Origin: the human T2T-CHM13v2.0 reference genome, Homo sapiens
Reading direction: 5' to 3'
Assembly: GCA_009914755.4 (NCBI GenBank)
Contig: CP086569.2
Location: 3,904,001-3,968,000 of the forward strand
Length of the DNA stretch: 64,000 nucleotides
Both the position numbers and the translations under genes were made by a program. This document shows positions 51,713 to 57,357 of the stretch, piece after piece (position 1 is the first letter of the stretch; each line of letters opens with the position of its first letter). Below the pieces are notes generated by a model. That model saw nothing but the letters and a program-made list of their open reading frames with translations, was not told the origin of the DNA and searched no databases.

Positions 51713-51779
51713 TGTATTAGTCAGGGTTTGTTAGAGTGATAGAATTAATAGGATAGATTTATATATAAAGGGGAGTTTA
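51713..51779 (-). mobile_element. A 65-bp remnant of an ERVL-type LTR, corresponding to the terminus that reads 'tgtattagtcaggg...gggagtttat' on the plus strand. It directly abuts the 3' end of the ERV-L pol.
   Basis: 'tgtattagtcagggtttgttagagtgatagaattaataggatagatttatatataaaggggagtttat' compared with LTR A 'tgtattagtcagggttctctagagggacagaaccaatataatagatgtatacacaaaggggagtttat'. Confidence 0.55.
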
Positions 51780-52298
51780 TATCACAGGGCATGGTAATAA
51801 GAAGAGGCACTCTAATGAATCTCCTGTATTCCATGCATAATCTTTCTTACCTCTGTTGCAGAGTAGTAGACTGATAGAATCTTGATAGTCTGAGTCAATC
51901 ATCCCAGCCAACACTGTACCTCCCTTCTTAGGCTGTTGGTGTAAAGGTAGGAGAAGTGCAAAGTGTCCAGGTGGCAATCTTAATTTCCAGTTTAATTGAA
52001 TCATTGCTATGTTTCCTGGTGGCAGCATTCCTCCCTCTGAAACTAAGACCTCTAGGCCAGCAGAACATAATGTCACAGAAACAGGAAGCAAATATGTTGT
52101 TAGTGGGTCACTAGGGGTGATGGTGAGTGTTGCCACTTCCAATTCCACCCCTTGATTCCTGGACCCATGATTCCTGGCTATGGGAGAAACAGTACCATAT
52201 ATTGGATGCTGATTCAGAGCAAACACAGCCTTCTGGAGAACCTTGTCCCAGCCATGCAAAGTATTATAACCTAATTGGCATTTTAGTTGTGACTTCAA
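51777..52298 (-). pseudogene. ERV-L pol C-terminus, comprising the integrase C-terminal region and a dUTPase domain remnant (173-aa ORF).
   Basis: '...LQKAVFALNQHPIYGTVSPIARNHGSRNQGVELEVATLTITPSDP...LPPGHFALLLPLHQQPKKGGTVLAGMIDSDYQDSISLLLCNRGKKDYAWNTGDSLECLFLLPCPVI'. The dUTPase motif 3-like 'GxIDSDY' is present. Confidence 0.75.
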
Positions 52299-52315
52299 AA
52301 GGCCATTCCATCATT

Positions 52316-52699
52316 CTATCCATCCAGCTGCTTCAGGATGATGGGGAACATGGTAAGACCAGTGAATTCCATGAGCATGAGCCCGCTGCCACATGTTTTT
52401 AGATGTAAAGTGAGTGCCTTGGTCAGAGGCAATGCTGTGTGGAATACCATGATGGTGGATAAGTCATTCCATGAGTCCACAGATGGTAGTCTTGGCAGAA
52501 GTATTGTGTGTAGGATAGACAAACCTACATCCAGAATAAGTGTATATTCCAGTGAGGACAAACCTCTCTGCCCTTTCCATAATGGAAGAGGCCCAGTATA
52601 ATCAACCTGCCACCAGATAACTGGCTGAACACCCTGAGGACTAGGGCCATATTGAGGGCTCAGTGTTCGTCTCTGCTGCGGCAAATTGGGTGTGGACAT
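52316..52699 (-). pseudogene. ERV-L integrase catalytic-core remnant (127-aa ORF).
   Basis: 'PVIWWQVDYTGPLPLWKGQRG' resembles the retroviral integrase region around the first catalytic Asp ('WQ.DYTG...G'). Confidence 0.6.
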
Positions 52700-54157
52700 A
52701 GCCAGGTCAGCCTGGGTGACTGGAAATCCATGTTGCTCAGCTCATGCATAACCTCCATCCCTGCCGCAATGGCTACTTTGTTCATCAGACCGTTGAGTGA
52801 TGACGATGACAGGAGAAGCTGGAAAAAGAGGCTGAGTAGTGTCTACAGAACAGGTCATCCTATCCACTTGATTATTAAAATCTCTTCTGCTAAGGTCACG
52901 CATTGGTGAGCACTCACATGGGATACAAATATCATCCCCTTTTTTTTGGCCACTCAGAAAAGTCTATCCACATACCTCTTCCCCAAATTTCTTTGTCACC
53001 AATTATCCAATCATGTTTCTTCCAAGTCCCTGATCATCCAGCCAAGCCATTGGCTACAGCCCATGAAACAGTATATAATTGCACATCTAGTTATTTTTCC
53101 TTCCATAAAAAGTGCACAACCAGATGCACTACTCAAAGTTCTGCCCACTGGGAAGATTTCCCTTCACCACTTTCTTTCAGGGATGTCCTGAAAGGGACTG
53201 TAGTGCTGCAGCTGTGCACTTGTGGGTGGTACCTGCATATCATGCAGAACCATCTGTGAACCAGACCTTAGATTTCTCTCTCTCTCTGTCAAGTGATCAT
53301 AGGAAACTCTCCATGAGGCCATTGGTGCAGGCTGAGGGAAAGAAGGTAGGGTGGCAGGAAAATAATGGGCATTTGAGCCACTTCCTCGTGTAACTTACTT
53401 GTGCCTTAAGGACCTGCTCAAGCCCGATCACGTATATACTACTTCCATTTGATGATGGAATGCTGCTGTGCATGAACGACTCTATGGCAAGATGGGTCAG
53501 AAAGCACCCAGGTCATGATAGGCAGTTCAGGCTGCATGGTGACTTTACTCTTGGTCAAACATTCAGTTTCCACCAAAGCCCAGTAACAGGCCAAGAGTTG
53601 TCTCTCAAAAGGAGAGTAGTTATCTGAAGAAGATGGCAGGGCCTTGCTTCAAAATCCTACAGGCCTCTGCTGTGATTCACCTATGGGGACCTGCCAGAGG
53701 CTCCAAACAGCATCCCTATTTGCCACTGAGACCTCAAGCACCATTGAGTCTGCTGGGTCATATGGCCCAAGTGGCAGAGCAGCTTGCACAGAAGCCTGGA
53801 CCTGTTGCTGAGCCTTCTTCTAGTTCTGGACCCCACTGAAATCTGGCACCCTTTCAGGTAACTCAATAAATGGGCTGGAGTAACACACACCCAAATGAGG
53901 AATGTGTTGCCTCCAAAATCCAAATAGGCCCACTAAGCATTGTGCCTCTTTCTTGGTTGTAGGAGGGGCCAAATGCAGCAACTTATCCTTCACCTTGGAA
54001 GGAATATCTTGACAGGCCCCACACCACTGGACCCTTAGAAATTTTATCGAGGTAGAAGATACCTGAATTTTAGTCAGGCTTATTACCTATCCACTGGCAT
54101 GCAAATGTCTCACCAATAAGTCCAGTATGTTTGCTACTTCTTGCTCACTGGATCCAA

Positions 54158-54710
54158 TCAGTGTAATGTCATCAATGTAATGAACGAGTGTGATACCTTG
54201 TGGAAGGGAAAATCAATTAAGGTCACTCCAAACAAGATTATGACACAAAGCCAGAGAGTTGATATACTCCTGAGGTAGGACAGTAAAGTTATATTGCTGG
54301 CCTTGCCAGCTGAAGACAGATTGCTTCTGGTGGGCCTTATGGACAAGAATGGACACGAGGACGTTAGTCAAGCCAATGACTTCATACCAGGTACCAGGAG
54401 ATGTGTTTATTTGTGCAAGCAATGAAACCACATCTTCTACAGCAGATGCAATTGAAGTCACCATTTAGTTAAGTGTACAATAATCCACTGTCATTCTCCA
54501 AGATCCAACTGTCTTCTACACAGACTGAATGGAAGAGTTGAAAGGGTATGTGGTGGGAATAACCACCCCTGCATCTCTCAAGTCCTTGATTGCAGCACTA
54601 ATCTCTGCAATCCCTCCAGGGATGCAATATTGTTTTTTATTTACTTTTTTTTTAGGAAGTGGCAGCTCTAATGGCTTCCATTTGGCCTTTTCCACCATAA
54701 TAGCCCTCAT
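54158..54710 (-). pseudogene. ERV-L reverse transcriptase remnant (overlapping 64-aa and 83-aa ORFs, frameshifted).
   Basis: 'IPGGIAEISAAIKDLRDAGVVIPTTYPFNSSIQSV' and 'VVSLLAQINTSPGTWYEVIGLTNVLVSILVHKAHQKQSVFSWQGQQYNFTVLPQEYINSLALCHNLVWSDL' match the retroviral RT fingers/palm region as seen in HERV-L pol. Confidence 0.75.
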
Positions 54711-55998: not shown

Positions 55999-56867
55999 TC
56001 ACACTCTGACCTCACCTCTATGGGCCCACTGGGACTTCAATCTAGTTATAGGTCTAGAAGCACACAAGGGTGTTCGGGGTGGGTATTGAGGAGAATCAAC
56101 ATTATCTTGCCTCGTAGCTGCCTCAGGAGAGGCCATCACTGTTGCCTCAGTTAGTGCAGGGTTTATCTCCTCAGACAAAGGTGGAAAGGCTGATGGCAGC
56201 ATGGGTCTTGGAGGGGATCTTGCCACTACTGGGGATGGGGAAGCTGTTTCTTCTGGTAAAAAGATTCATCAGAGTTTACAAGCTCAGTGTCCCCAGCTTC
56301 ATCAGGGTCCTCCCACACATCACCTTTCCAAGTTGCGGGGTCCCATTTTTTACAAATCAATGTCCTCACTTTAACAGTAGACACCTGGCAAGGCTGTGCA
56401 TGCACATTTTGTTGCAGGTCAGCCACTTGCATTTTAAGAACCTGTGTCAGATTTTCTACAATTTCAGCTCTTTCTCTACATGAGATAAGACTCTTGCTCA
56501 GGGCAATCTTAGAAGATTTGAGGCTTAGTATGTACTTCTGAAGATGGGAGTTAGAATCCCTGAGTTCAACATTTTTTTTCATCACTTTATCCAGTGGACT
56601 TAGGAGCAACCAACCAACTTTATTATGTTCTTGGGTTCTCCACATATGGTCAAAAGTATTATGTATAGGGTCATTAAACTCCTTGCCTCTCACAAGTGGT
56701 GAATCTGGAGTGTCTAATGTATTTATTTTGCATAATTCTCTAAACAGTTCATGCCAAGGACTATCAGTGTTCTCCACACTATTAAAAGTAGAGTCCTTAG
56801 CATTTTGAAGTCTAATCACATTAAGCAGCCAACTCCAGAAACCCCAAAACCAATGAAAGAACTCCAT
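55999..56867 (-). pseudogene. ERV-L gag remnant. The 213-aa ORF at 56226-56867 begins ~25 bp downstream of the PBS, and the 75-aa ORF at 55999-56226 continues it.
   Basis: Its position immediately downstream of the LTR and PBS on the proviral strand supports the call. It is the longest ORF in the window (213 aa: 'MEFFHWFWGFWSWLLNVIRLQNAKDSTFNSVENTDSPWHELFRELCKINTLD...'). I did not recognise any specific gag motif. Confidence 0.5.
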
Positions 56868-56892
56868 CCTTAATATTCTGTTCCTCTAGAAC

Positions 56893-56907
56893 CACTCCTG
56901 GTACCAA
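56893..56907 (-). other. Primer binding site complementary to the 3' end of tRNA-Leu, the 'L' of HERV-L. It lies 4 nt from the LTR terminus.
   Basis: The minus strand reads '...ctaatacag atat TGGTACCAGGAGTGGttctagagg'. This compares with the canonical tRNA-Leu PBS 'TGGTGTCAGGAGTGGGATTCGAAC' with 13 of 15 matches, and it starts with the obligatory TGG. Confidence 0.65.
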
Positions 56908-56911
56908 TATC

Positions 56912-57357
56912 TGTATTAGTCAGGGTTCTCTAGAGGGACAGAACCAATATAATAGATGTATACACAAAGGGGAGTTTATTAATGAGTATTAACTCACATG
57001 ATCACAATGTCCCACAATAGGCCATCTGCAAGCTGAGGAGCAAGGAAGCCAGTACATTTTCCAAAGCTAAAGTACTTGGAGTCTGATATTCAAGGACAGG
57101 AAGCATGCAGCATGGGAGAAAGATGTAGGTTGGGAGGCTAAGGTATTCTAGTCTTTTCATGTTCTTCTGCCTGCTTTTTAGTCTGGCCCTGCTGGCAGCT
57201 GATTAGATTATGCCCACCTAGATTAAAGGTGGGTCTGCCTTTCCCAGTCCACTAACTCAAATGTTAATCTCCTTTGGCAACACCACCATAAAGACACCCA
57301 GGAGCAACACTTTGCATCTTTTAATTCAATCAAGTTCATACTCAGTTATCCATCACA
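56912..57357 (-). mobile_element. ERVL-type LTR (MLT2-like), here called LTR A. By position it is the 5' LTR of the minus-strand ERV-L provirus. It reads tgtattag...atcaca on the plus strand, that is TGTGAT...CTAATACA in the proviral sense.
   Basis: It starts 'tgtattagtcagggttctctagagggacagaaccaatataatag' and contains '...ccataggccatctgcaagctgaggagcaa...ccagtccactaactcaaatgttaatctcctttggcaacacc...'. It ends '...atccatcaca'. It directly abuts the PBS and gag, and is homologous to 57913-58463 and 28195-28631. Confidence 0.7.

What the first reader, a model, noticed from the sequence alone, without database searches (positions are those of the whole stretch)
51713..57357. ERV-L (HERV-L-like) provirus remnant with a recognisable tRNA-Leu PBS, gag-pro-pol-dUTPase order, one intact flanking LTR and a vestigial other LTR
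Reading the minus strand from high to low coordinates gives the following order. First comes an LTR (56912-57357) ending ...CTAATACAG. Four nucleotides later there is a TGG-initiated 15-nt stretch, 'TGGTACCAGGAGTGG', which matches the tRNA-Leu 3' end complement at 13 of 15 positions. A 213-aa gag-like ORF then starts ~25 bp downstream. After that come a protease with LLDTGS, RT, integrase, and a dUTPase located after the integrase, which is the class III / ERV-L signature. At the other proviral end only 65 bp of LTR terminus remain (51713-51779), fused directly to the pol 3' end and abutting an unrelated antisense L1 ORF1 fragment. This suggests an internal LTR deletion or a rearrangement rather than a simple solo-LTR or complete provirus. 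Two further copies of the same LTR family occur nearby. One (57913-58463) has a perfect 5-bp TSD inside an L1, so the locus records several independent ERVL-type integrations.
Basis: partly seen in the sequence, partly recalled or inferred. Interest (0 to 1): 0.5.

Follow-up and report, generated by a model that had tools for sequence, protein, structure and literature searches.

The report
Decayed ERV-L (HERV-L-type) provirus in L1
This is an ordinary, long-dead copy of the well-known primate endogenous retrovirus ERV-L (HERV-L) that inserted into an older L1 repeat tens of millions of years ago and later lost about 0.9 kb at its 3' end.

Summary
On the minus strand, 51713-57357 is one ERV-L provirus. 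Pfam finds RT, RT-RNase H connection, integrase core and then dUTPase, in that order and in one frame. The protease rests only on two motifs and its position.

The 68-bp LTR end at 51713-51780 is the true 3' terminus. Both proviral ends carry the same 5-bp target-site duplication, CTGGT (chance about 0.2%). So this was one integration followed by an internal deletion of about 0.9 kb, running from dUTPase motif 4 to LTR position about 378. It was not a rearrangement. An independent public contig carries the same junction.

The flanking L1 pieces are not unrelated. They are the inverted and direct halves of one 5'-inverted (twin-priming-type) L1, and the provirus sits at their junction.

A longer MLT2-like solo LTR (57913-58463, TSD ATATC) lies 555 bp away, and an older one at 28120-28632.

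The coding regions are full of stops and frameshifts. This is a known family and a routine copy, so interest is low.

The parts
57358..57362 (-). 5' copy of the target-site duplication, CTGGT (read on the minus strand)
   Evidence: It is identical to the 5 nt after the 3' LTR end. Random 5-mers in this window match at a frequency of 0.0018.
56912..57357 (-). 5' LTR, 446 bp, TGTGATGG...AATACA. It contains AATAAA, and a TAATCTAATCA motif at 57200-57210.
   Evidence: About 82% identical to the 3' LTR of a human chr5 HERV-L.
56892..56906 (-). Primer binding site TGGTACCAGGAGTGG, 5 nt (GATAT) downstream of the LTR
   Evidence: 15/15 complementary to the 3' end (...CCACTCCTGGTACCA) of tRNA-Leu-TAA-1-1 as printed in PMC10359600. 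The same 18-mer complement, TGGTACCAGGAGTGGGGT, is used as a tRF probe in PMC6049499. In the window the match breaks after position 15, consistent with a 2-nt loss in the G run.
55450..56867 (-). gag region: an intact 213-aa N-terminal ORF (56226-56867), then a frameshifted and stop-interrupted continuation
   Evidence: The concatenated conceptual gag is 49-50% identical over 100% of its length to 'Friend virus susceptibility protein 1-like' proteins (E 1e-143) and 38% identical to Apodemus Fv1. It has no Pfam hit. The lower boundary is approximate.
54754..54960 (-). Putative retropepsin core (LLDTGS ... IIGIDIL)
   Evidence: Motifs located, between gag and RT. No Pfam or PDB hit. BLASTP against HIV-1 protease gives E 0.21. 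Support is motif-level only.
54036..54335 (-). Reverse transcriptase core, with YIDD at 54168-54179
   Evidence: Pfam RVT_1, E 1e-10 to 3e-12. Motif located.
53553..53822 (-). RT-RNase H connection domain. An RNase H FTDGS motif follows at 53246-53260 in another frame.
   Evidence: Pfam RT_RNaseH_2, E 2e-7. Motif located.
52323..52612 (-). Integrase catalytic core. The D,D,E residue contexts are WQVDY (52598-52612, in a shifted frame), SDQGTHF and HPEAAG.
   Evidence: Pfam rve, E 8e-10, at 52335-52559. Motifs located.
51780..52064 (-). dUTPase domain, motifs 1-4 (SAGLEV, IDSDYQ, GDSLECL...LPCPVI). It is truncated before motif 5 by the deletion.
   Evidence: Pfam dUTPase, E 3e-8, covering profile positions 13-96 of 129. 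Intact primate homologues continue for at least 50 aa beyond LPCPVI.
51713..51780 (-). Remnant of the 3' LTR (last 68 bp, LTR positions 379-446), joined directly to pol
   Evidence: 82.4% identical to the matching part of the 5' LTR. The same junction is present in the independent contig L001.
51708..51712 (-). 3' copy of the target-site duplication, CTGGT
57913..58463 (-). Separate MLT2-like solo LTR (551 bp), flanked by the TSD ATATC, in the same L1
   Evidence: 81% identical over its full length to the 3' LTR of the human chr5 HERV-L.
50784..51701 (-). Inverted 5' segment (ORF1) of the host L1. Its direct segment runs on the + strand from 57358 to beyond 59400 and is interrupted by the solo LTR.
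   Evidence: Alignment to a contiguous L1 at 23823-25211. The inverted piece ends at reference position 1140 and the direct piece starts at 1146.

Best explanation
A single ERV-L (HERV-L-type, class III) retrovirus integrated in minus orientation into a pre-existing 5'-inverted L1 element. Integrase duplicated the 5-bp target CTGGT.

The provirus then decayed neutrally. Many frameshifts and stops accumulated, and the two LTRs diverged by about 18%. That corresponds to roughly 45 million years, with a wide error range.

One internal deletion of about 0.9 kb removed the end of the dUTPase, the remaining 3' internal region including the polypurine tract, and the first 378 or so bp of the 3' LTR. 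The provirus is a molecular fossil with no coding capacity.

Shown: domain order, PBS, TSD, deletion junction, family relationship. Inferred: timing, the order of events, and the absence of any present function.
For: - Pfam finds RVT_1, RT_RNaseH_2, rve and dUTPase in that order on the minus strand.
- The gag region is full-length homologous to Fv1-like proteins.
- The PBS matches tRNA-Leu(UAA) at 15/15.
- 847 homologues were found. The named ones are primate, and many carry rve+dUTPase.
- The internal region is 80% identical at the nucleotide level to a human chr5 HERV-L copy, whose dUTPase is followed by about 530 bp and then a complete LTR.
- The 5-bp repeat CTGGT is identical at both ends. 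Chance is about 0.18%.
- The 3' LTR remnant aligns to LTR positions 379-446.
- Intact homologues continue for at least 50 aa past the junction.
- The same junction appears in an independent contig.
- LTR-LTR K2P distance is 0.205 over 68 bp. This falls within the 13-42% reported for class III HERVs (PMC4724089) and fits the 65-30 Mya activity of HERV-L (PMC11359688).
- Each minus-strand frame contains 81-105 stops.
Against: - The protease is not supported by any profile or structure-sequence search.
- The LTR subfamily (MLT2A1, MLT2A2 or another) could not be assigned, because no Dfam/RepeatMasker library was available.
- The age rests on only 68 aligned bp. The 95% CI of p is 0.09-0.29.
- The integration site coincides with the L1 inversion junction to within about 6 bp. 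This is an unexplained coincidence.
Confidence: 0.95

Rival explanations
1. The structure is a product of rearrangement. An inversion or a recombination between two different ERV-L/MLT2 copies joined a 5' LTR-gag-pol piece to the tail of an unrelated LTR, and at the same time put L1 pieces of opposite orientation on the two sides.
For: The flanking L1 pieces have opposite orientation. The 3' LTR is reduced to 68 bp. The two LTR ends are only 82% identical over a short stretch.
Against: The 5-bp repeat CTGGT is identical directly outside both LTR termini (chance 0.18%), so the two flanks were adjacent at the time of integration. The L1 inversion has the abutting-coordinate signature of twin priming (reference 1140/1146), which is explained without involving the ERV.
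Confidence: 0.03
2. The element, or part of it, has been co-opted. Candidates are the intact 213-aa gag N-terminal ORF, the 173-aa IN-tail/dUTPase ORF, and the 5' LTR as a DUX4-responsive promoter.
For: - ERV-L gag has been exapted before, as Fv1 (PMC11359688).
- The 213-aa ORF is the longest in the element.
- The 5' LTR contains TAATCTAATCA. By my own recollection this matches the DUX4 consensus TAAYBBAATCA.
- MLT2A LTRs are reported to be DUX4-bound in embryos.
Against: Both ORFs are fragments that end at frameshifts or at the deletion junction. The dUTPase lacks motif 5. Neither exact product is on record as a called gene. No conservation or expression evidence was available. A single motif match is not evidence of binding.
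Confidence: 0.02

Closest known systems
HERV-L / ERV-L (class III, spuma-like endogenous retroviruses; RepeatMasker HERVL-int with MLT2-type LTRs)
   Same: - LTR-PBS(Leu)-gag-pro-pol order.
- dUTPase C-terminal to the integrase.
- Fv1-like gag.
- 5-bp TSD.
- No room for env in the reference copy.
- 70-80% identity to other primate copies.
- LTR divergence within the reported class III range.
   Different: This copy has lost about 0.9 kb (the end of pol, the 3' internal region and most of the 3' LTR). Its LTR is about 100 bp shorter than the LTR of the human chr5 copy and the neighbouring solo LTR. Subfamily not assigned.
MuERV-L / Fv1 (mouse)
   Same: The gag region is homologous over its full length (38-50% identity) to Fv1 and Fv1-like proteins. 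MuERV-L also carries a dUTPase C-terminal to IN (PMC1224870).
   Different: The window element is a primate-type, degenerate copy. There is no intact gag ORF and no evidence of exaptation.
Twin-primed (5'-inverted) L1 insertions
   Same: The host L1 has an inverted 5' piece and a direct 3' piece whose L1 coordinates abut, with 5 nt missing.
   Different: The L1 target-site duplication and poly(A) end were not located. The inversion junction is occupied by the ERV-L provirus.

Membership tests
ERV-L / HERV-L (class III ERV) | dUTPase domain located C-terminal to the integrase in pol | tested here: met
   Pfam rve at 52335-52559 is followed by dUTPase at 51813-52064 in the same frame. The literature criterion is in PMC1224870 and PMC4724089.
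ERV-L / HERV-L (class III ERV) | Primer binding site complementary to tRNA-Leu | tested here: met
   15/15 to the tRNA-Leu-TAA-1-1 3' end, and 13/15 to Leu-CAG. No full human tRNA set was available, so other tRNAs were not compared exhaustively. PMC4724089 reports that only 35 of 87 canonical HERVL use Leu.
ERV-L / HERV-L (class III ERV) | gag related to Fv1 / MuERV-L gag | tested here: met
   E 1e-143, 49-50% identity and 100% coverage to Fv1-like proteins.
ERV-L / HERV-L (class III ERV) | pol closely related to known HERV-L copies | tested here: met
   70-76% amino-acid identity to primate rve+dUTPase proteins. 80% nucleotide identity over 3.4 kb to a human chr5 copy.
ERV-L / HERV-L (class III ERV) | No env gene between pol and the 3' LTR | tested here: inconclusive
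   That region is deleted in this copy. In the related human chr5 copy only about 530 bp separate the equivalent point from the 3' LTR, which is too short for env.
ERV-L / HERV-L (class III ERV) | 5-bp target-site duplication (class III habit; from my own knowledge of Repbase ERV3 descriptions) | tested here: met
   CTGGT at 57358-57362 and 51708-51712. The solo LTR has ATATC.
ERV-L / HERV-L (class III ERV) | MLT2-type LTR (Dfam/Repbase assignment) | not testable with these tools
   No repeat library was available. Indirect evidence: about 82% identity to the 3' LTR of a human HERV-L provirus.
ERV-L / HERV-L (class III ERV) | Retropepsin between gag and RT | tested here: inconclusive
   The LLDTGS and IIGIDIL motifs are present. 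There is no Pfam or PDB hit, and BLASTP against HIV-1 PR gives E 0.21.
Twin-primed 5'-inverted L1 | Inverted 5' segment and direct 3' segment with abutting L1 coordinates | tested here: met
   The inverted piece ends at reference position 1140 and the direct piece starts at 1146.
Twin-primed 5'-inverted L1 | One TSD flanking the whole L1, and a 3' poly(A) | tested here: not met
   No repeat of the left flank was found in 58000-64000. The L1 3' end may lie outside the window or be disrupted.

The most novel reading that the evidence does not exclude
The provirus's 5' LTR carries an exact TAATCTAATCA DUX4-type motif. It could act as a cleavage-stage promoter driving the intact 213-aa gag N-terminal ORF or a downstream chimeric transcript. 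Alternatively, retroviral integration exactly at an L1 inversion junction could reflect a real target preference rather than coincidence.
Probability: 0.03. Interest if true: 0.35.

Novelty: already known. Interest (0 to 1): 0.08.

Why it matters
It matters little beyond annotation. HERV-L/MLT2 elements are a well-described family with hundreds of proviral copies and thousands of LTRs in primate genomes. The useful outcome is a clean dissection of this copy. It shows one integration with a TSD, a defined deletion of about 0.9 kb, a perfect tRNA-Leu(UAA) PBS, and nested insertion into a 5'-inverted L1. The locus is a tidy worked example of nested transposon history. It is not a new biological entity.

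Tried and rejected
- Pfam scans at permissive E-values for gag and protease gave nothing meaningful.
- A PDB sequence search with the protease segment gave only chance hits.
- BLASTP against HIV-1 protease aligned only the DTG region, E 0.21.
- Pfam on longer gag homologues showed only DUF5535, which says nothing about the protease.
- A search for the host L1's own TSD or poly(A) end found nothing convincing.
- Exact-product look-ups of the 213-aa and 173-aa ORFs, intended to identify the source genome, found no record.
- The classic HERV-L and MuERV-L papers (PMC191811, PMC104094) are not held.
- Rfam, tRNA and tandem-repeat scans found nothing relevant.
- I considered that the TGTGAT just before the LTR remnant was the start of the 3' LTR, or a microhomology that mediated the deletion. 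I rejected this because CCCTGTGATA encodes the conserved CPVI of the dUTPase, and the 21 nt that follow TGTGAT in the LTR are absent.
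Full report
**Observation**

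- The LTR begins TGTGATGG at 57357 and ends ...CTAATACA at 56912 (446 bp).
- The spacer is followed by TGGTACCAGGAGTGG at 56892-56906.
- A 213-aa ATG-initiated ORF (56226-56867) starts 24 nt further on.

**Coding content**

The three minus-strand frames contain 81-105 stops each, so nothing long is intact.

Pfam on the stop-masked frames finds four domains in one frame and in this order:

| Domain | Window coordinates | E-value |
|---|---|---|
| RVT_1 | 54036-54335 | 1e-10 |
| RT_RNaseH_2 | 53553-53822 | 2e-7 |
| rve | 52335-52559 | 8e-10 |
| dUTPase | 51813-52064 | 3e-8 |

Motifs are where expected:

- YIDD at 54168-54179
- FTDGS at 53246-53260
- WQVDY, SDQGTHF and HPEAAG in the integrase core
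- SAGLEV, IDSDYQ and GDSLECL in the dUTPase

The dUTPase therefore follows the integrase. This is the arrangement described for MuERV-L (PMC1224870) and for nearly all HERVL (PMC4724089).

The protease is weaker. LLDTGS (54943-54960) and IIGIDIL (54754-54774) lie between gag and RT. No Pfam or PDB sequence match supports a retropepsin, and BLASTP against HIV-1 protease aligns only the DTG region at E 0.21.

The gag region has no Pfam hit. A conceptual gag was made from the 213-aa ORF plus the frameshifted continuation. It is 49-50% identical over 100% of its length to proteins named 'Friend virus susceptibility protein 1-like' in lagomorphs and rodents (E about 1e-143). It is 38% identical to Apodemus Fv1. 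Fv1 is an exapted ERV-L gag (PMC11359688).

**Family relationship**

The IN-dUTPase stretch finds 847 homologues. The named ones are from primates (Macaca, Papio, Pongo, Homo, Callithrix), and many carry rve plus dUTPase domains at 70-76% identity.

A human chr5 locus encoding one of them (L002) matches the window element at 80% nucleotide identity over 3.4 kb of pol. It has a complete 3' LTR that is about 82% identical to the window's 5' LTR.

**Primer binding site**

The sequence of human tRNA-Leu-TAA-1-1 printed in PMC10359600 ends ...CCCCACTCCTGGTACCA. Its complement is TGGTACCAGGAGTGGGG, and the same 18-mer is used as a probe in PMC6049499.

The window matches the first 15 positions perfectly, then appears to have lost two G's. 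I could not compare against a full tRNA set.

**The 3' end**

The last 68 bp before 51713 align to LTR positions 379-446 at 82.4%. Directly upstream, the sequence still encodes the dUTPase up to ...LPCPVI.

Intact homologues continue with KVNGKLQQ... for at least 50 more residues. In the human chr5 copy about 530 bp of internal sequence, and then the LTR, follow the equivalent point. About 0.9 kb is therefore missing: roughly 530 bp of internal sequence plus about 378 bp of LTR.

The 5 nt outside the 5' LTR (57358-57362) and the 5 nt outside the 3' LTR end (51708-51712) are both CTGGT on the minus strand. Random 5-mers in this window match at 0.18%.

This is the signature of a single integrase-mediated insertion. 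The truncated 3' LTR therefore results from a later internal deletion, not from recombination or rearrangement.

The junction is not an assembly artefact of the window. An independent 865-bp contig from a human gut metagenome (L001) carries the same pol-LTR junction, at 99.2% identity over its last 715 nt.

**Age**

The two LTR ends differ at 12 of 68 sites, giving a K2P distance of 0.205. This corresponds to roughly 47 My at 2.2e-9 substitutions per site per year, with a wide error range (95% CI of p 0.09-0.29).

The estimate fits two published ranges. One is the 13-42% LTR divergence reported for class III HERVs. The other is HERV-L activity in simian primates about 65-30 Mya.

**Surroundings**

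The two flanks are L1 sequence in opposite orientation. I aligned them to a contiguous L1 elsewhere in the window (23823-25211).

- The piece at 51701-50784 (ORF1, sense on the minus strand) ends at reference position 1140.
- The piece starting at 57358 (sense on the plus strand) begins at reference position 1146.

Abutting coordinates with a 5-nt loss are the signature of a 5'-inverted L1, the product of twin priming (from my knowledge of Ostertag and Kazazian 2001). The flanks are therefore two halves of one older L1, not unrelated fragments.

The ERV-L target site is the first 5 bp of the direct half. That places it within 6 nt of the inversion junction. I regard this as coincidence but cannot explain it. 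I did not find the L1's own TSD or poly(A) end.

A separate 551-bp LTR lies 555 bp away in the same L1 (57913-58463), with the perfect TSD ATATC.

- It is 72-80% identical to the provirus LTR.
- It is 81% identical over its full length to the chr5 HERV-L LTR.
- The provirus LTR lacks about 100 nt that both of these longer LTRs have.

A third, much more diverged copy lies at 28120-28632. Rfam, tRNA and tandem-repeat scans add nothing.

**Verdict**

This is a routine, degenerate ERV-L (HERV-L-type) provirus with a defined 3' deletion, nested in a 5'-inverted L1.

The corrections concern four points: the PBS match, the existence of the TSD (which settles deletion versus rearrangement), the relation between the flanking L1 pieces, and the subfamily difference of the neighbouring LTR.

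Nothing here departs from what is known of the family. The only speculative residue is the DUX4-type motif TAATCTAATCA in the 5' LTR (57200-57210). The motif occurs 6 times in the window against 1.66 expected. MLT2A LTRs are known DUX4 targets, so even this is expected of the family.

Noticed in passing
window 50784-51707 and 57358-59400+: The L1 that hosts the provirus is 5'-inverted. An inverted ORF1 piece and a direct piece have L1 coordinates that abut with 5 nt missing, which is the twin-priming signature. Six unassigned nt (51702-51707) lie at the junction. The ERV-L target site is the first 5 bp of the direct piece.
   Followed up: partly
window 57200-57210 (-), also 57322-57332 (+): An exact TAATCTAATCA lies inside the 5' LTR and fits the DUX4 consensus TAAYBBAATCA as I recall it. 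The motif occurs 6 times in the window against 1.66 expected by chance. The neighbouring solo LTR has a mutated version.
   Followed up: partly
L001 1-865 vs window 51712-52578: A contig from a human gut metagenome carries the same pol/LTR deletion junction. It is 99.2% identical over its last 715 nt but only about 87% over its first 150 nt. It is probably a chimeric assembly of host-derived HERV-L reads. The 0.8% difference leaves open whether the window is human or a close relative.
   Followed up: partly
window 28120-28632 (-): A third, much more diverged MLT2-like LTR copy (nhmmer E 8e-14 to the solo LTR), about 23 kb from the provirus.
   Followed up: no
window 56912-57357 vs 57913-58463 and L002 9314-9862: The provirus LTR lacks about 100 nt (alignment A2, columns 311-428) that are present in the neighbouring solo LTR and in a human chr5 HERV-L LTR. 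This indicates two LTR length variants or subfamilies side by side.
   Followed up: partly
window 23823-25211 (+), 5558-7294 (+): Further L1 copies covering ORF1 and the start of ORF2 occur elsewhere in the window, 72-76% identical to the host L1. The window is AT-rich, repeat-dense mammalian DNA (GC 0.28-0.47).
   Followed up: no
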